IMG/VR virus record: IMGVR_UViG_3300025872_003406
Span: 1-64,000 of that record
Reading direction: 5' to 3' (one strand)
From: a virus
Length of the DNA stretch: 64,000 bases
Shown one piece after another: positions 1 through 21,900 of this stretch. Every line of letters begins with the position of its first letter. Positions within the stretch are counted from its first letter, which is position 1. The position numbers and the translations under genes are program-made. The notes under the pieces are model-generated. The model was given only the letters and a program-made list of their open reading frames with translations. It ran no database searches and was not told the origin of the DNA.

Positions 1-229
1 TCTAAATAGAAGAATAGGCCTAGTGCGGCAGATGCATCAGTGCGTAGCGCGAAGTGCATCTGCGACTTGCCACGCCACAGTTCCGTTGGATCCCGGATTA
101 AAGCAAACGCGCTGTGTGAATAAACACGAGGACAAAGATCTTTCAGCACATATCTTGCTGATCGATAAATAAATCTCGTTGCGGTTAAAGATATCCGCCA
201 GCGTGGCGCCTCTTTCTTGTTCTTTTTAT

Positions 230-304
230 TGCAGTGTAGAGCATTGGTAGCTCGTCTGGCTCATAACCAGGAGGTAGGTGGTTCGATTCCATCCGCTGCA
301 CCCA
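230..304 (+). tRNA. tRNA-Met (CAT), initiator-like
   Basis: Cloverleaf: acceptor TGCAGTG/CGCTGCA, D-arm GAGC..GCTC, anticodon arm TCTGG-CTCATAA-CCAGG, T-arm GGTGG-TTCGATT-CCATC, encoded CCA at 302-304. D/anticodon arms resemble bacterial tRNA-fMet. Confidence 0.93.
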
Positions 305-305
305 A

Positions 306-551
306 TTTTTCTTAGACCACACTTACAACCGGCAATTGCGCCGTTAGTGGTCGTATTCATCGAAGCCAGCAACGTCAGAACAGCAGGACAGCTATGACGC
401 CGAGTGACTAATTACGATGCAATGGCAATGCGAAGCCCGGATGTTAAGACCCGCTGTTATCTAGAACGGTCTCATCCGGTACCGGTGTACCGGAGACAGT
501 AATGTCGTAGCATATCCTAAACAACATCGATGAGCAGTGGTCTAAGGAAAA
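306..551 (+). ncRNA. Candidate structured non-coding RNA of unknown class
   Basis: TTTTTCTTAGACCAC (306-320) pairs with GTGGTCTAAGGAAAA (537-551); nested TTCATCGA/TCGATGAG helix; internal hairpin TCCGGTAC..GTACCGGA; no ORF; starts 1 nt after the tRNA CCA. Confidence 0.5.
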
Positions 552-689
552 GCAGATACTGCACCCGTAGTTAACTATGGGAAGCTTTCTGATGGTCTGA
601 ACCTCGCGCCAACAACGCCTTTGTTGGCGGTGTAAGCAACCGGTTGCTATATACGAGGCTATGAAAGTTCACAAAGACCTTATTTCCAG

Positions 690-697
690 GATAAATA
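690..697 (+). promoter_or_regulatory. T4-type late promoter variant (GATAAATA)
   Basis: One mismatch to TATAAATA, 9 nt upstream of ATG 707. Confidence 0.5.
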
Positions 698-706
698 CGT
701 CTCCCT

Positions 707-2215
707 ATGAGAAACACAAACCTAACCACAAACCTGAAGAACGGATTGCTTCAAGCAGTTCTATTCTTCATCTTTGCAGTCTCGGCAGTTGCCCTTCCAG
801 GAACTGGCCCTACAAATCTCCAGACAAGTACTGGAGTAACGTTCACGCAGTCGGGTTCGACGCTGGCGTTCAACGCTCCGGATCGTGCGATCCTGAATTG
901 GAACAACTTTGGTTCCGGTGCAGACCAGATCGCCGTCGCTGACACCATCAGGTACAATCTTCCTGGTGCTGCAGCCTCGGTCCTAAACATCGTTTCCGGC
1001 GGTGCACAGACCACGATCAACGGAACGATCGAATCAAATGGAAAGGTCTACGTACTGAATCCAAATGGCATCGTGATCGGCGGTACTGCTCGCATCGACA
1101 CCAATGCATTTGTGGCCAGCGCAGTGGACAATCCATTCGCCGCACAGTTCAAGTACATGACCGATGGAGTTATTCCTTCGGAGGTCGGTGGACAGCGTAC
1201 CGCTAGCGGTAATGTCGTTGCACAGAACGGTGCGATCTTCGCTACTCCTAACGTAGTCATCCTCGGCAAGGACATCACCATTGGTGGAGTCTTGACTGCT
1301 GGAAACATGGCTCTGAACGGCGACGGCGCAGTCACAGTTGGTGCTCCTGCCTTTACCACCTGGATTTCTGGTGACCTAAGCATCACGAATCCTACCGGTA
1401 CAACCACGATCGGTGTTCCTACCGCCAATGTTGGAACAAACAATGGTATCTCTGTGATCTCCACATCTGGCGATATCACCAATGCTATTGGTTCTCGTGT
1501 TGTTGGAAAGAACCTGGTTGTTAACACAGTCAGCGGTAATGTCACGCTCGCCGCTGTTGCCACAAATGCAGTCACTGCAAACGGCAAGAACGTCACCGTT
1601 GCTTTTGATACCGGCGCTCTTACGCCAAGCTTCTCAGGATCTGCGGTCAACGGCCTGACGGTCACTGCTCCTGCTTATCTCCTCTTGGCCGATGTCAAGG
1701 GCGATGCTGCCAATAACAGCTTCACGGCTGGTGGCACGCTGACCATCGGTAAGGTTCATCTGGGCGGCAGCGCATCCTTCACTGGATCTCGTGTCGTTGA
1801 CTCGGTCGACAACGTATTCGTTTATGACCGTGCTTCGTTCACGGCTACCGCTGGTGACGTTGCAGTCACCAAGGCTGGTCACAGCTTCGGTCCTTTGTCG
1901 ATTTCGGCCACGGGTAATGCTACCGTCTATGAGAATGCCGCGATCAATCTGAATGGCGTGAACGTCAAGGAACTCGTCCTTAAGACTAAGGAAGGATTCT
2001 TCCAGACTCCTAACACGTTTGCACTGACCGCCACGAAGTTCTCGCTCGATACTCTCGGCGCAGTCACCTTTACCGGCGGTACGGTCTCGAATGGCCTGAC
2101 GATCAATGCCGGATCTGGTAACGTCGACCTGAGCAAGCTCAGCCTCGTCACCAATCTGAATAGCGTTGCTCCAGTTGTTACCACAACCGGTACGGTTGCT
2201 AACCCAGCTCAATAA
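707..2215 (+). CDS. Filamentous haemagglutinin N-terminal (TPS secretion domain) beta-helix protein
   Basis: Signal peptide, then AILNWNNF..., VLNIVSGG..TTINGTIESNGKVYVLNPNGIVIG (NPNG motif); G/T/N/V-rich beta-solenoid composition. Confidence 0.85.
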   Translation: MRNTNLTTNLKNGLLQAVLFFIFAVSAVALPGTGPTNLQTSTGVTFTQSGSTLAFNAPDRAILNWNNFGSGADQIAVADTIRYNLPGAAASVLNIVSGGAQTTINGTIESNGKVYVLNPNGIVIGGTARIDTNAFVASAVDNPFAAQFKYMTDGVIPSEVGGQRTASGNVVAQNGAIFATPNVVILGKDITIGGVLTAGNMALNGDGAVTVGAPAFTTWISGDLSITNPTGTTTIGVPTANVGTNNGISVISTSGDITNAIGSRVVGKNLVVNTVSGNVTLAAVATNAVTANGKNVTVAFDTGALTPSFSGSAVNGLTVTAPAYLLLADVKGDAANNSFTAGGTLTIGKVHLGGSASFTGSRVVDSVDNVFVYDRASFTATAGDVAVTKAGHSFGPLSISATGNATVYENAAINLNGVNVKELVLKTKEGFFQTPNTFALTATKFSLDTLGAVTFTGGTVSNGLTINAGSGNVDLSKLSLVTNLNSVAPVVTTTGTVANPAQ

Positions 2216-2889
2216 TGAATAAGCTCATCGCACTATTGCTCGCCACTGCAGCCATTTCACAGGCTGCTCTGGCTCCTGCCAATAACGGTACCCTGACCGT
2301 TGGTTACCGTGAGAAGGACATCACCTTCGGAAAGGTGACAAGCCGCCAGGGTGCTTATGTGGCCAATGCCGAGTTCACCTGGCAGAGCTTCCGCGCTGCT
2401 GCAGTAATGCAGAACAACGTTTCCCTCAAGGATTCCGGCCTTTATCAGGCTGACCTCGTTGGTGGTTACTCGTTCTTCTCCACCCTGGCAAACGTCGAGG
2501 TTGGAACAAAGTACGTCACAAAGTTCAAGGCAGATCCAAAGGATCGGATGAATCACTGGCGTCCATTTGTTACAGTCGGTAACTCCTGGTTGTCTGTCAC
2601 TGCGACAGCCGATCTTGAGGCTCAGACCACGAACATCGAGGGCAAGGTCTCAAAGACCATCCCTCTGTTCCTGGGAATCAAGAGCACGACGGCTCTATCG
2701 GCAGGTTACACCGATGTCAACGACGCACTTCCTCGTACCCTGAAGGAAGTCAAGTACACCAATGCGTACTACGGTGGGTCCTTCGATATCACCTGGAAGA
2801 TTGCCACTGCTGGAATCTACGTCCTGCGTGATGGCATCAAGAATGAATGGTCTGCTGGCTGGAGAGCCGGAACCACAATTCGCTTCTGA
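2215..2889 (+). CDS. Putative outer-membrane beta-barrel protein
   Basis: Signal peptide, amphipathic beta-strands with aromatic girdle residues, C-terminal ...AGTTIRF (BAM-type terminal Phe); stop/start overlap with the upstream gene. Confidence 0.7.
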   Translation: MNKLIALLLATAAISQAALAPANNGTLTVGYREKDITFGKVTSRQGAYVANAEFTWQSFRAAAVMQNNVSLKDSGLYQADLVGGYSFFSTLANVEVGTKYVTKFKADPKDRMNHWRPFVTVGNSWLSVTATADLEAQTTNIEGKVSKTIPLFLGIKSTTALSAGYTDVNDALPRTLKEVKYTNAYYGGSFDITWKIATAGIYVLRDGIKNEWSAGWRAGTTIRF

Positions 2890-2909: not shown

Positions 2910-2940
2910 AAAAGGGTGACTTCGGTCACCCTTTTTTATT
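2910..2940 (+). terminator. Rho-independent terminator
   Basis: AAAAGGGTGAC-TTCG-GTCACCCTTTTTT. Confidence 0.9.
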
Positions 2941-2966
2941 TACAGCAACCACACATAGTGTATGAT
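2938..2966 (+). promoter_or_regulatory. Early promoter
   Basis: ATTTAC-N17-TATGAT, 6 nt before ATG 2973. Confidence 0.6.
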
Positions 2967-2972
2967 CAACCA

Positions 2973-3548
2973 ATGACCATGAAGTACGTATTTGTTGACC
3001 TAGATGAGACGTTAATCCACTGCTCATTCCTGGGCAGCAGCGAGAAATCGAAGAAGTTTTCCCGAAAGGGATCTGAGATAATCAACCTGAGCCTGGGAGA
3101 CGAGACTCCGGAGTACTACCAATGCACCCTGAGAAACGGTGCGATCGATCTGTTGTCCAGGTTAAGAGACCTGCCGAATGCAGAGGTCTACATGCTGACC
3201 GCTGCCACGAAAGACTACGCCCTGGCCAACAGCGAGACGTTCAACCTGCGGTTCACCGGCGATCGTGTTTTCTCTCGAGAGGATACCAACCTGCTGGCAT
3301 CTCGAGTCGCCGATCGTTTTAAGCCTGAAGGTGACTTCGATATGTTCTTGCTGGATAATCTGCCCTACAGCGATAATAACATCAAGATCGATTGGCTGAC
3401 TTCGCTGGCACGTGCCATTGGGGATTCTTCCAAGAGATTCTCTCGTTCTCATTACATTCAGGTCCCGGACTACTATGGAATGAAGAATAGCCGGGCGTTC
3501 AAAGACGAATACATCACCGATATCATCGAGCAAATCAAGAATTCCTAA
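2973..3548 (+). CDS. HAD-superfamily phosphatase (NIF/FCP1-like)
   Basis: VFVDLDETLIH (DxDxT motif), MLTAA motif II, LLDN motif IV. Confidence 0.75.
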   Translation: MTMKYVFVDLDETLIHCSFLGSSEKSKKFSRKGSEIINLSLGDETPEYYQCTLRNGAIDLLSRLRDLPNAEVYMLTAATKDYALANSETFNLRFTGDRVFSREDTNLLASRVADRFKPEGDFDMFLLDNLPYSDNNIKIDWLTSLARAIGDSSKRFSRSHYIQVPDYYGMKNSRAFKDEYITDIIEQIKNS

Positions 3549-3851: not shown

Positions 3852-4952
3852 ATGATGAAGCTACCCACACTCTACGCTCGCACCGGTACCGGTGCCGTAC
3901 AGCAATGGACCATTGAGATCGATGGTGACCGCTACCGTACTATCCACGGACAGACCGATGGCAAGAAACAGACGACCGAGTGGATGGTTGCTTCTCCCAC
4001 AAACGTGGGTCGTTCGAACGAACGAGATGGCAATCAGCAGGCGGAGTTCGAGGCGAAGGCGGCCTGGAAAAAGAAATCCGAGTCAGGTTACTATCAGGAC
4101 CTGAAGGATATCGACAAGCCTGCATTCATCGAGCCGATGCTGGCCCAGAAGTACGAGGACCGTAAGGACGAGATCACCTTTCCCGTCTGGAGTCAGCCGA
4201 AGCTTGATGGCATCCGCTGCATCTGCACAAAGGATGGCATGTTCAGCCGGCAAGGCAAGCGGTTTGTCTCGGCTCCCCATATCCAGAAGGCGCTTGAGAG
4301 CTTCTTCCAGAAGCACCCAGATGCCATCGTCGATGGCGAGCTGTACTGCGACAAGCTGGCAAACGACTTCAACAAGATCTGCTCGCTCGTCAAAAAACAG
4401 AAACCGACCGCAGATGAACTCCTCGAGTCGTCGAGGACGATCGAGTATCACGTATACGATATCGTGGATGCCACGATGACGTTCTCTGAGCGGTACCGCT
4501 GGCTTGAGGAGAACCTTCCTGTGGATCGAAACAAGGAAATTCGACTGGTCATGACGGTAGAGGTCGTGCATCATAAAGAGCTCGACCACATCTACGGTGG
4601 TTACGTTGAGGACGGCTACGAAGGCCAGATGGTCCGCATCGATGCCCCGTACGAGCAGAAGCGGTCGAAGTACCTGCTCAAGCGCAAGGAGTTTCAGGAT
4701 GCCGAGTACAAGATCATTGAGATCGGCGAGGGCACTGGCAATCGCACCGGTACGGCTGGATTCGCGATCCTCGAGAACAAAGACGGTAGTCTGTTTCGCT
4801 CGAACATCAAGGGCAGCCACGAGTTCCTGGCAGATCTTCTTAAGAATCGAGAGGATGTTATCGGAGAGAAAGCCACGGTTCAGTACTTTAACCTGACGCC
4901 GGATAACGTTCCGCGTTTCCCATTTGTTATCGCAATCCGCAACTACGAATAA
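3852..4952 (+). CDS. lig: ATP-dependent DNA ligase
   Basis: Motif I QPKLDGIRC, IVDGELY, YHVYDI, GYEGQMVR, KRSKYLLKRK, C-terminal VPRFP. Confidence 0.95.
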   Translation: MMKLPTLYARTGTGAVQQWTIEIDGDRYRTIHGQTDGKKQTTEWMVASPTNVGRSNERDGNQQAEFEAKAAWKKKSESGYYQDLKDIDKPAFIEPMLAQKYEDRKDEITFPVWSQPKLDGIRCICTKDGMFSRQGKRFVSAPHIQKALESFFQKHPDAIVDGELYCDKLANDFNKICSLVKKQKPTADELLESSRTIEYHVYDIVDATMTFSERYRWLEENLPVDRNKEIRLVMTVEVVHHKELDHIYGGYVEDGYEGQMVRIDAPYEQKRSKYLLKRKEFQDAEYKIIEIGEGTGNRTGTAGFAILENKDGSLFRSNIKGSHEFLADLLKNREDVIGEKATVQYFNLTPDNVPRFPFVIAIRNYE

Positions 4953-11315: not shown

Positions 11316-11745
11316 CATAATGCCATCGTGTGTCCGTGCGTCGGACATGGTGCATGCATTTAAGTCTCCGGCGTTCAACGGTATTGGATATTCATCTCAC
11401 GTATTCACGCAGGAGAATCTGGCACGTACTCGTAAGCAGACGATCAAGGATGTTGCAAAGGCAGAGGCCGAGAACCTGAAGCTAGCCAGTCAGAACACCC
11501 CTCTCAATAACTTTATCGTCAACCTGCAGGCACGAATCTACTCGCAGCTCGCGTCTCAGGTCACCGACGAGATCTTCAATGCATCAGGCGCCACATTCGG
11601 TGTGATTAATCTGCAGGGAGGTGCGACTGTCACCTGGAATCGATCTGGTGACTTCGTGACACTTTACATCGTGGATCCTTCGACCGGAAACATGACCTCG
11701 ATTCAGGTACCGGTTGGTTCACTCACACCTCCACCCACGGGCTGA
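11245..11745 (+). CDS. csgF: Curli assembly protein CsgF-like
   Basis: Signal peptide, then SDMVHAFKSPAFNG, matching the CsgF N-terminal F.F.nP.F.G motif; directly upstream of csgG. Start could be 11281. Confidence 0.75.
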   Translation: MKQDRNKSSDVWMLLTLAIILFLSIMPSCVRASDMVHAFKSPAFNGIGYSSHVFTQENLARTRKQTIKDVAKAEAENLKLASQNTPLNNFIVNLQARIYSQLASQVTDEIFNASGATFGVINLQGGATVTWNRSGDFVTLYIVDPSTGNMTSIQVPVGSLTPPPTG

Positions 11746-12557
11746 TGAGATCGATACTGGCAATCCTACTTGGAGTGTCTTTGGCCGGTTGCGGTTCGCT
11801 ACCGAAATCTCCTCGTATCATCGAGGCTCCGCTCGCCCAGCAATCACCTCTGCAGAAGCAACTCAACTCTCTGCCGACTGTGGATGGCAACCGAATCACC
11901 ATTGCAGTCTACACATTTGCCGACAAGACCGGTCAGAGAAAGACGGTTGATCAGTATGCATCTTTCTCATCGGCCGTCACACAGGGTGCAGAATCCTGGC
12001 TAATCGACGCCCTTCGTATTGCCGGCCAGGGTTCATGGTTCCAGGTTCTGGAGAGGGCATCTCTGGATAATCTCATCAAGGAACGTCAGCTGATCGCACA
12101 GACGCGTGAATCCTTCTTTGGTAAAGAGGCTGAGAAACTATCACCGCTTCTCTTTGCTGGAATCATCGCAGAGGGTGGCATCATCGGTTACGACACAAAC
12201 GTCCTGACCGGTGGTGCTGGTGCCAGCTTGCTAGGAATCTCTGGTAGCACTCAGTACCGCAAGGATGTGGTCACTGTTTCCCTTCGATTCATCTCGGTTC
12301 AGACCGGCGAGGTTCTGCTCTCCGTGGCGGTCACGAAGACCATCACGAGCGTAGCGACCTCTGGAAACCTTTTTAAGTTTTATGAGCATGGAGTAACTCC
12401 CGCAGAATCAGAAATTGGCCTGACGGCGAACGAACCCAACACAATTGCGGTTCGAAGCGCTATCGACCAAGCTGTGATTGAAATCATACATCAGGGAGCC
12501 AAAACTGGATTATGGAAATTCGTCACAGCTAACAACCAACCCACAACAGAAAAATGA
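11745..12557 (+). CDS. csgG: Curli secretion channel CsgG lipoprotein
   Basis: Lipobox LAGC, AVYTFADKTGQRK, SSAVTQGA, VLERASLDNLIKERQLI, EGGIIGYDTN, GEVLLSV. Confidence 0.93.
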   Translation: MRSILAILLGVSLAGCGSLPKSPRIIEAPLAQQSPLQKQLNSLPTVDGNRITIAVYTFADKTGQRKTVDQYASFSSAVTQGAESWLIDALRIAGQGSWFQVLERASLDNLIKERQLIAQTRESFFGKEAEKLSPLLFAGIIAEGGIIGYDTNVLTGGAGASLLGISGSTQYRKDVVTVSLRFISVQTGEVLLSVAVTKTITSVATSGNLFKFYEHGVTPAESEIGLTANEPNTIAVRSAIDQAVIEIIHQGAKTGLWKFVTANNQPTTEK

Positions 12558-21712: not shown

Positions 21713-21900
21713 GTGTTGAAGGAAAAGAGATCCGTAGCCTTGAGCTCGTTGATTCGAGCGATCCGCGTCTCACGACTACGTGTAAAACCGCCAAGAAAAG
21801 CCACAAAAAACCACAAAGAGCGAAGACTACGAGGATGATCGTCCGAGTATGCTCAAGTGGGTTATGGAAAATCGCTTGAGAATAAATAACTCTGCAATTA

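What the first reader, a model, noticed from the sequence alone, without database searches (positions are those of the whole stretch)
306..551. ~245-nt stem-closed RNA of unknown class immediately after the tRNA
A 15-bp terminal helix (306-320 with 537-551, one G-U) and a second nested helix (356-363 with 527-534) close a multibranch domain with further hairpins (CGTCA/TGACG; TCCGGTAC-N-GTACCGGA at ~476-494). It has no coding capacity and none of the tmRNA, RNase P or SRP signatures I can recognise. T4 carries stable RNAs of unknown function in its tRNA cluster, so this may be an undescribed phage ncRNA family.
Basis: partly seen in the sequence, partly recalled or inferred. Interest (0 to 1): 0.7.

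Follow-up and report, generated by a model that had tools for sequence, protein, structure and literature searches.

The report
New folded RNA beside phage tRNA
Right after a tRNA gene, this lake-water T4-like phage carries a gene for a large, intricately folded RNA that codes for no protein, matches no catalogued RNA family, is kept far more strictly than the neighbouring protein gene and turns up in river RNA samples, but its job is still unknown.

Summary
The 15-bp helix 306-320/537-551 (one G-U), the nested helix 356-363/527-534 and the CGTCA/TGACG hairpin are all there. The 476-494 hairpin sits in a 14-nt insert found only in this window.

I found six distinct homologues, all from uncultured freshwater T4-like phage contigs. 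They keep the fold through compensatory changes. The terminal helix has four different sequences, all paired. G-U pairs fit the + strand only.

No Rfam family matches, at E up to 10 in the window and up to 1 in two relatives. The conserved, structured unit is larger than reported, about 305-680. It has the stem-closed domain D1, two linker hairpins and a second domain D2.

Contigs from three river metatranscriptomes lie inside this stretch and bridge D1 and D2. A diverged relative gives 380-387-nt contigs at high depth.

In relatives the RNA ends an RNA island: tRNA array, tmRNA, pistol ribozyme, tRNA-Met. This mirrors T4 RNA D and RNA C, but no homology to them was found.

Verdict: a real, expressed RNA of an uncatalogued family with a narrow known range. 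Its function is not established. This scan has noted similar uncatalogued RNAs in tRNA arrays of other lake phages (e1-6108888).

The parts
165..171 (+). ATAAATA motif, a candidate late-type promoter about 60 nt upstream of tRNA-Met
   Evidence: The motif occurs 18 times in the window against 5.4 +/- 2.1 in shuffles (0 of 100 shuffles reach 18). Most copies lie just upstream of + strand ORF starts. This copy is conserved in L003 and L004 and in a near form in L008. Promoter function is inferred, not shown.
230..304 (+). tRNA-Met (CAT) with encoded CCA, directly upstream of the RNA
   Evidence: ARAGORN; Rfam tRNA, 58.6 bits. Present before the RNA in 5 of 6 distinct homologues and absent in L008.
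306..551 (+).
   Evidence: Fold z -3.43. Six distinct homologues. Covariation in helices P1, P1a, A, C and D.
306..320 (+). P1 5' strand; pairs with 537-551
   Evidence: 15 bp in the window. 14, 14, 13, 12 and 12 bp in L003, L004, L008, L011 and L014, with four different sequences, all paired. The wobble pairs are allowed only on the + strand.
330..343 (+). Hairpin P1a (330-333 with 340-343)
   Evidence: Predicted in all six. One pair changes on both sides in L008.
343..348 (+). P2 5' strand; pairs with 407-412. It crosses helix 356-363/527-534, so one of the two is a pseudoknot or an alternative pairing
   Evidence: 100% of cells paired. Pair 348:407 reads U-G in 4, C-G in 1 and U-A in 1. The rival pairing 364-368/405-409 is broken in the window itself. 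Unresolved.
356..363 (+).
   Evidence: 8 bp, invariant in all six. A diverged relative in river RNA differs in this strand, but its partner strand was not visible (table 7).
373..399 (+). Hairpin A: 373-377/395-399 and 382-384/391-393, with the invariant loop AGGACA
   Evidence: 3 of 5 lower-stem pairs change on both sides; 100% paired. It lies within 367-406, one of the two stretches that also match the diverged river homologue.
415..432 (+). Hairpin B, variable in detail
   Evidence: The closing pairs 415-416/431-432 are invariant. The interior differs between the window and the others.
437..479 (+). Hairpin C: 437-443/473-479 and 447-451/468-472
   Evidence: One pair changes on both sides in L011 and L014. 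There is one C-A mismatch in L008.
481..494 (+).
   Evidence: Absent from the 5 other distinct homologues. On its own it folds as a 4-bp hairpin.
495..506 (+). Hairpin D with a GUAA tetraloop
   Evidence: The stem changes on both sides between groups and has a wobble in L011 and L014. The loop is invariant.
552..581 (+). Linker hairpins E (552-555/559-562) and F (564-570/575-581)
   Evidence: In E, 3 of 4 pairs change on both sides. F has one-sided changes and entirely different sequences in L008 and L011 that still fold.
583..679 (+). Domain 2 (D2): helix X 583-589/663-669, helix Z 602-606/654-658, helix Y 594-598/675-679 (crosses X), and variable hairpins G 607-629 and H 636-647
   Evidence: X and Z each have one pair changed on both sides. 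Y varies on one side only. The interior has 2 hairpins in the window group and 3 in the L008 and L011 groups. GGTCTGAACC 594-603 is invariant, and 591-609 also matches the diverged river homologue without a mismatch.
691..697 (+). Second ATAAATA motif, 10 nt before the ATG (707) of the TPS-domain gene; marks the likely downstream limit of the RNA unit
   Evidence: Conserved as a close variant in L003, L004, L011 and L014, and more altered in L008.

Best explanation
Window 305 to about 680 (+ strand) is the gene of a stable, structured, non-coding RNA of an uncatalogued family. The family is carried by a small clade of freshwater T4-like (Kyanoviridae-like) phages.

The RNA has two domains. D1 (306-551) is closed by a 12-15-bp helix and holds four to five hairpins and a probable pseudoknot. 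D2 (583-679) has a conserved core with variable peripheral hairpins. Two small hairpins join the domains.

Proposed mechanism, all steps inferred. The RNA is transcribed with tRNA-Met from a late-type promoter (ATAAATA at 165-171). It is freed at its 5' end when the host machinery matures the tRNA 3' end. The terminal helix protects it from exonucleases, so it accumulates. It then acts in trans, as a protein-binding or self-assembling RNA aimed at the host or phage translation and RNA-processing machinery. It does not act as a leader of the downstream gene.

Shown: the structure, its conservation, the strand, the absence from Rfam, and presence in RNA libraries. Not shown: promoter, ends, processing and target.

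My confidence that this is a real RNA of a new family is about 0.85. My confidence in the trans-acting stable-RNA mechanism is about 0.4.
For: Structure and covariation:
- P1 has four sequence versions, all paired.
- Hairpin A has 3 of 5 pairs changed on both sides, and the D1 core has 99.4% of cells paired against 17-45% when partners are slid.
- Hairpins E and F and helices X and Z covary.

Strand. Wobble pairs sit in P1, P2, Px, F, X and Y. On the - strand they would be mismatches.

Constraint. The D1 core is 85-93% identical to the window, while the adjacent TPS gene is 53-85% at the nucleotide level. For L008 the figures are 86% against 53%, with 47% at the protein level.

Expression. Contigs from three river metatranscriptomes of three studies lie wholly inside the unit and bridge D1 and D2: 325-657, 323-617 and 428-642. 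A diverged homologue forms 387- and 380-nt contigs at depth 44.5 and 134.5, whose offsets correspond to about 301-685 and 324-701.

Context. In relatives the order is tRNA array, tmRNA, pistol ribozyme, tRNA-Met, then this RNA. T4 has the same layout: last tRNA, then rnaD, then rnaC. Those two T4 RNAs are late RNAs of unknown role (passages read in PMC3014915 and PMC9697503).

Not tied to the downstream gene:
- 0 of 17 more distant TPS loci carry it.
- 0 of the 14 records of those loci that are held match the D1 or D2 model at E below 0.1.
- 14 of those 17 genes follow a coding gene with a short spacer.

The motif ATAAATA is enriched (18 against 5.4) and stands before both the tRNA and the TPS gene.
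Against: - Only six distinct sequences in three or four lineages, so many helices never vary (Px, most of P2, the inner stems of A and C) and no statistical covariation test is possible.
- Within the clade the RNA is always next to the TPS gene, so a cis role is not excluded.
- No intrinsic terminator follows D2.
- Contigs cannot give ends, strand or level, and one RNA-library contig (X15, 4033 nt) runs through the whole region.
- Fold stability is unremarkable in L008 (z 0.01) and L011 (z -1.66).
- Nothing points to a particular partner. GGA motifs are not enriched and antisense matches are at chance level.
Confidence: 0.55

Rival explanations
1. Two separate small RNAs rather than one. D1 (about 246 nt) and D2 (about 100-130 nt) would be cut apart after transcription, as T4 makes RNA D and RNA C side by side after its last tRNA.
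For: Each domain closes on itself. T4 has two adjacent stable RNAs of 119 and 139 nt in the same position. D1 has its own long terminal helix, typical of a processing or protection stem.
Against: RNA-library contigs of three runs bridge the D1/D2 border by far more than 31 nt. The diverged homologue's contigs (380-387 nt) span both domains. D1 and D2 always occur together, and neither model finds a lone copy at E below 0.1. Contigs can still come from precursors.
Confidence: 0.2
2. A cis-acting leader, riboswitch-like or a processing and stability element, that controls the downstream TPS-domain and beta-barrel genes. D2 would be the sensing or regulatory part.
For: The RNA lies directly upstream of the TPS gene in all six homologues. 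D2 has a conserved core with variable peripheral hairpins, as aptamers do. No terminator separates it from the gene.
Against: A motif enriched in this phage before ORF starts lies between D2 and the ATG. 0 of 17 more distant TPS loci have the element, and 14 of them have only a short spacer. No Rfam riboswitch matches. River RNA contigs of the close homologue end at 617-657, and none was laid on 701-1500 in those three runs. That absence is only a weak hint.
Confidence: 0.15
3. A ribozyme or RNA-processing module of the tRNA operon. It could be a new self-cleaving class that frees the tRNA 3' end, like the HDV-like theta ribozymes next to phage tRNAs, or it could help mature the island's transcripts.
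For: It starts 2 nt after the CCA of a tRNA. A pistol ribozyme lies upstream of it in the 5 relatives' loci that reach that far and were scanned. It has pseudoknot-like crossing helices and invariant joining strands.
Against: No hit to any Rfam ribozyme family at E up to 10. L008 has the RNA without the tRNA. At 375 nt it is far larger than small self-cleavers. No cleavage evidence of any kind.
Confidence: 0.08
4. A DNA-level element, not an RNA gene: a miniature inverted-repeat transposable element, or a recombination or replication site flanked by 15-bp inverted repeats.
For: A 246-bp unit bounded by 15-bp inverted repeats, next to a tRNA gene.
Against: One copy in the 81.6-kb record and one per related locus. 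The repeat arms change together to keep pairing, and they tolerate G-T only in the + strand sense. Internal hairpins covary too. The stretch is present in RNA libraries. The position is syntenic in all relatives.
Confidence: 0.02

Closest known systems
Phage T4 RNA C and RNA D (rnaC, rnaD; species 1 and 2 stable RNAs)
   Same: Stable non-coding RNAs placed right after the last tRNA at the end of a T4-type phage tRNA cluster. T4 rnaD begins 1 nt after tRNA-Arg; this RNA begins 2 nt after the CCA of tRNA-Met. Their function is unknown and they are classed as late RNAs (passages read in PMC3014915 and PMC9697503). A late-type motif stands upstream here.
   Different: No detectable homology: blastn, R1 and R2 give nothing on T4. 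Sizes are 119 and 139 nt against about 246 + 125 nt. T4 rnaC folds with a tRNA-like T arm, and I saw no such arm here.
ROOL and GOLLD large ornate RNAs
   Same: Large, multi-helix, pseudoknotted RNAs of unknown function. They are encoded by phages and prophages, often near tRNA islands, and are abundant (passages read in PMC12286853).
   Different: No Rfam match to either. About 375 nt against more than 550-800 nt. Cage formation is not testable here. Known range is six sequences.
Pistol self-cleaving ribozyme (RF02679)
   Same: Member of the same phage RNA island. It lies about 170-250 nt upstream of the RNA in relatives. Window 1-68 is the 3' part of one, by homology.
   Different: It is a separate, much smaller element. 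The RNA studied here does not match the pistol model.
Theta (minimal HDV-like) ribozymes next to phage tRNAs
   Same: Structured RNA adjacent to a phage tRNA gene (abstract of 10.1101/2023.06.13.544163, seen in the listing).
   Different: Those are small. No Rfam HDV-type family matches here. The RNA persists in L008 without the tRNA. No theta-specific model was available to me.

Membership tests
T4 RNA C / RNA D | Sequence or structure homology to T4 rnaC or rnaD | tested here: not met
   R1 with filters off on the T4 tRNA region: best E 0.33, in a coding region, nothing on rnaC or rnaD. R2 on the whole T4 genome: no match at E up to 1. blastn of window 1-700 against GenBank phages: only tRNA-Met matches among the 20 rows listed, and no place covers 80% or more of the query.
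T4 RNA C / RNA D | Position directly after the last tRNA of the phage tRNA cluster | tested here: met
T4 RNA C / RNA D | Late, stable transcript | tested here: inconclusive
   A late-type motif is enriched and stands upstream. Contigs are present in RNA libraries. No timing or half-life data can be had.
ROOL / GOLLD (Rfam) | Match to the family covariance model | tested here: not met
   No hit at gathering thresholds, at E up to 10 on window 1-900, or at E up to 1 on L007 and L008.
ROOL / GOLLD (Rfam) | Phage-encoded, near a tRNA island | tested here: met
ROOL / GOLLD (Rfam) | Homo-oligomeric cage | not testable with these tools
   Needs native gels or cryo-EM.
tmRNA, RNase P RNA, SRP RNA, 6S RNA | Match to the Rfam models or ARAGORN tmRNA | tested here: not met
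   The relatives' tmRNA is a separate gene upstream.
Known self-cleaving ribozymes (pistol, hammerhead, twister, HDV-like and others in Rfam) | Match to a family model on 305-680 | tested here: not met
   The pistol hits lie upstream, not on the element.
Known self-cleaving ribozymes (pistol, hammerhead, twister, HDV-like and others in Rfam) | Site-specific self-cleavage | not testable with these tools
   Needs in vitro transcription assays.
Riboswitch or cis-leader of the TPS operon | Recurs upstream of the same gene family beyond close relatives | tested here: not met
   0 of 17 distant TPS loci by nhmmer. 0 of 14 held records by R1. R2 gives only E of 0.1 or more. Upstream regions were inspected.
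Riboswitch or cis-leader of the TPS operon | Match to a known aptamer class | tested here: not met
MITE or DNA inverted-repeat element | Multiple dispersed copies | tested here: not met
   One copy in G000 and one per related locus.

The most novel reading that the evidence does not exclude
This is the founding member of a new class of large, two-domain, pseudoknotted phage RNA. Like ROOL and GOLLD it would work as an RNA machine in its own right, either a self-assembling particle or a new ribozyme, acting on the translation or tRNA-processing apparatus late in infection by freshwater T4-like phages. The diverged, highly abundant 380-nt relatives in river metatranscriptomes would show that the class is much wider than the six sequences retrieved here.
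Probability: 0.15. Interest if true: 0.8.

Novelty: new variant of a known kind. Interest (0 to 1): 0.5.

Why it matters
Phage tRNA islands carry many RNAs whose roles are unknown. T4 RNA C and RNA D are still without a known role (PMC3014915, PMC9697503), and ROOL and GOLLD were recently shown to form cages (PMC12286853).

This is a well-delimited new example. It has covariation support, evidence of expression in nature and stronger conservation than the neighbouring gene. It belongs to the phage group that infects abundant streamlined freshwater and marine bacteria; the closest cultured relatives are Melnitz and the pelagimyophages (PMC9004378).

It gives a compact target of about 375 nt for structure probing, cryo-EM, self-cleavage tests and pull-downs. 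Those could show what this kind of RNA does for a phage.

The limits are plain. The known range is narrow, there is no cultured host, and no function can be assigned from sequence.

Tried and rejected
Homologue searches that added nothing:
- Five further IMG/VR pattern scans and one protein scan found only the four related contigs, apart from chance hits L009 and L237, both coding.
None of them was a true match by nhmmer, so that collection is not excluded.
- The metagenome scan gave 79 stretches. nhmmer kept 10 of them as true matches (L011, L013, L014, L026, L063, L064, L068, L073, L076, and, after 17 further hits, none), which add three distinct sequences (L011, L014, L026 partial).
- blastn against GenBank phages found tRNA-Met only among the 20 rows listed.
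- R1 found 0 of 4 cultured Kyanoviridae genomes and 0 of 14 distant phage fragments. R2 gave only E of 0.1 or more outside the clade. Fragments prove no absence.

Ideas rejected:
- CsrA-type sponge. The AGGAC-type motif recurs 2-3 times, but GGA is not enriched: 5-7 observed against 6-8 expected.
- Antisense regulator. Complementary 10-mers in the window are at about chance level.
- Hammerhead-like core in D2. The letters are not conserved among homologues.
- tRNA-like decoy. I saw no T-arm, unlike T4 rnaC.
- RNase P-like layout. The helix order does not fit, judged from my recollection of the RNase P layout, and Rfam is silent.
- Retron-type RNA. No reverse transcriptase downstream; Pfam gives a TPS domain.
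- Host identity. The cluster look-up gave no organism names.
- No depth on 701-1500 in runs X17-X19. This is only a weak hint and is not used as proof.
- The contig starts at 323-326 in three runs. They could reflect a 5' end, strain variation or thin coverage. No conclusion drawn.

Supplementary files of papers were not consulted. Those of PMC9004378 and PMC2864571 might list RNA elements of related phages.

Full report
**What is in the sequence.**
The window is the first 64 kb of an 81.6-kb IMG/VR virus record. ARAGORN and Rfam find one tRNA, tRNA-Met(CAT), at 230-304 with an encoded CCA.

- 356-363 with 527-534
- CGTCA 373-377 with TGACG 395-399
- 475-482 with 487-494

As + strand RNA, 306-551 folds at -77.3 kcal/mol against -62.4 +/- 4.4 for shuffles (z -3.43; 0 of 200). 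No ORF of 40 aa or more lies inside 373-570.

**Known families.**
Rfam 15 at gathering thresholds on the whole window gives only the tRNA. At E up to 10 on 1-900 it adds two chance-level hits away from the element. At E up to 1 on two relatives' loci (L007, L008), nothing falls on the homologous stretch.

**Relatives.**
- A protein scan with the downstream gene and DNA pattern scans of IMG/VR gave four related contigs.
- One metagenome scan plus nhmmer filtering added more.
- After removing duplicates there are six distinct full-length sequences (window, L003, L004, L008, L011, L014) and two partial ones.
- Further scans, GenBank phages by blastn, and two covariance models added none. The models were run on 14 distant phage fragments, 4 complete cultured relatives (Melnitz, Mosig, HTVC008M, C48C1) and T4.

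**Structure and covariation in D1.**
- P1. The inner half of the terminal helix differs in four ways among the six sequences and stays paired in all, at 15, 14, 14, 13, 12 and 12 bp.
- Hairpin A (373-377/395-399) has 3 of 5 pairs changed on both sides.
- Hairpin C has one such pair, plus one C-A mismatch in L008.
- In the D1 core, 99.4% of cells are paired, against 17-45% when partners are slid by 1-3 columns. No shuffle of 500 reaches the observed covariation score.
- Hairpins P1a and D each have a compensatory pair. D carries an invariant GUAA loop.
- A 6-bp pairing 343-348/407-412 is fully kept, with pair 348:407 reading U-G, C-G or U-A. It crosses the invariant helix 356-363/527-534.
- The nested alternative 364-368/405-409 is broken in the window itself. 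So a pseudoknot or alternative conformations are likely but not resolved.

**The unit is larger than reported.**
Conservation continues past 551.
- Two small hairpins follow. E has 3 of 4 pairs compensatory. F has different sequences in each group, all folding.
- Then comes a second domain. Helix X (583-589/663-669) and helix Z (602-606/654-658) each carry a compensatory pair.
- Helix Y (594-598/675-679) crosses X.
- The interior has two or three variable hairpins.
- The ATG at 661 lies inside this domain and is CTG in four of the five other distinct homologues.
- Folding 305-685 gives z -4.14. The same stretch of L008 and L011 gives 0.01 and -1.66, so thermodynamics alone would not single it out.

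**Strand.**
Wobble pairs occur in P1, P2, Px, F, X and Y. On the - strand they become mismatches. Only the C-A in hairpin C of L008 points the other way. The tRNA, the relatives' tmRNA and pistol ribozyme, and the downstream gene are all on the + strand.

**Selection.**
The D1 core (338-480) is 85-93% identical to the window in the five other sequences. The adjacent TPS gene is 53-85% identical at the nucleotide level. For L008 the figures are 86% against 53%, with 47% at the protein level.

**Expression.**
Fourteen DNA runs and six RNA runs hold part of window 1-1500. I laid contigs from four RNA runs.
- Three river metatranscriptomes from three studies have contigs that lie entirely inside the unit and bridge the two domains: 325-657, 323-617, and 326-457 with 428-642.
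- Two of these runs also hold a diverged homologue as 387- and 380-nt contigs at depth 44.5 and 134.5. It matches only 367-406 and 591-609. By offsets these contigs correspond to about 301-685 and 324-701.
- The letters printed beside these matches agree with the window at 22 of 30 positions upstream of 367. Downstream of 609 they read as a 7-bp hairpin where hairpin G lies.
- A fourth run holds a 4033-nt contig of a close relative in which 309-591 is replaced by 282 other letters.

Contigs cannot give ends, strand or abundance, so this shows presence in RNA libraries and co-transcription of D1 and D2. It gives only a weak hint of the limits.

**Context.**
PHROG hits to the single-strand DNA-binding protein, baseplate hub and wedge subunits mark a T4-like myovirus. 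The closest cultured relatives, at about 35% protein identity, are Methylophilales phage Melnitz, the pelagimyophages and the cyanomyoviruses. Melnitz-like phages also carry tmRNA and curli genes (passages read in PMC9004378), and the window has CsgG.

In relatives the RNA closes an RNA island: 10-25 tRNAs, a tmRNA, a pistol ribozyme (36.9-52.1 bits against a 34.5 threshold), then tRNA-Met. L008 lacks the tRNA-Met but keeps the RNA. By homology, window 1-68 is the 3' part of the pistol ribozyme, cut by the contig end.

The motif ATAAATA is enriched (18 against 5.4 expected). It lies mostly before ORF starts, with copies at 165-171 before the tRNA and 691-697 before the TPS start.

T4 has the same layout: last tRNA, then rnaD 1 nt later, then rnaC. 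Both are late RNAs of unknown role (PMC3014915 and PMC9697503, passages read). ROOL and GOLLD are likewise phage RNAs near tRNA islands (PMC12286853, passages read).

**Is it a leader of the TPS gene?**
Among 21 loci with TPS homologues, the four from the known clade carry the RNA and 0 of the 17 others do. In 14 of those 17, the gene follows a coding gene with a short spacer. In three it follows a tRNA and an AT-rich spacer with no match. This argues against a general link with the gene, but within the clade the two are never apart.

**Reading.**
I take this as the gene of a stable RNA of about 375 nt from an uncatalogued family. It is most likely made with tRNA-Met from a late-type promoter, freed by tRNA maturation and protected by its terminal helix, and it acts in trans.

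What it binds or does is unknown. A protein-binding or self-assembling role aimed at the translation and RNA-processing machinery is my best guess from the company it keeps.

Rivals are two separate RNAs as in T4, a cis-acting leader, a new ribozyme, or a DNA element. The last is practically excluded.

**Earlier notes of this scan.**
The scan reports similar uncatalogued RNAs in tRNA arrays of other lake phages, including a roughly 360-nt RNA abundant in lake metatranscriptomes (e1-6108888). A sequence look-up found no look-alike of this RNA in other windows, so I cannot say whether it is the same family.

Noticed in passing
window 1-68: By homology to relatives, this is the 3' three-quarters of a pistol self-cleaving ribozyme, cut off by the start of the contig. 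The relatives' pistols are L008 9453-9520 (52.1 bits), L014 5762-5829 (46.3 bits) and L007 3551-3610 (36.9 bits). The window copy has a longer internal hairpin. Rfam does not report the truncated copy.
   Followed up: partly
L008 9170-9445; L007 3112-3389: Weak matches, below the gathering score, to the manA RNA motif (32.5 and 23.7 bits against 55.2). They lie just upstream of the pistol ribozyme in relatives and may be another structured RNA of the island.
   Followed up: no
L007 72-2867; L008 5994-8800; L014, L026, L013: Relatives carry 10-25 tRNA genes and a one-piece tmRNA upstream of the pistol ribozyme. The tag peptides end in LAA. The window's contig starts too late to show them.
   Followed up: partly
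window 77-229: The spacer between the pistol ribozyme and tRNA-Met is conserved among relatives. It holds the ATAAATA motif (165-171) and a terminator-like hairpin at 196-208 followed by a T-rich run.
   Followed up: no
window, 18 sites (e.g. 691, 8942, 10240, 30492, 55535): ATAAATA is over-represented (18 against 5.4 expected) and lies mostly a few bases before + strand ORF starts, as expected of a T4-type late promoter.
   Followed up: partly
An ATAAATA copy lies at 21882-21888. Not examined.
   Followed up: no
window 707-2889 and 11745-12557: The phage encodes a TPS-domain (haemagglutinin-like) protein followed by a 224-aa ORF with no Pfam hit, and a CsgG curli-pore homologue. TPS homologues of 40-92% identity are common in metagenomic phage contigs.
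   Followed up: partly
window 309-591 (run X15): A close relative in an RNA library has the flanks at about 92-95% identity, but 282 other letters stand in place of 309-591. So D1 can be swapped for a diverged or different version while the tRNA and the 3' part of D2 stay.
   Followed up: no
window 3852-4952 and 2916-3548: ATP-dependent DNA ligase and an NIF-type phosphatase-like protein lie downstream of the TPS unit.
   Followed up: no
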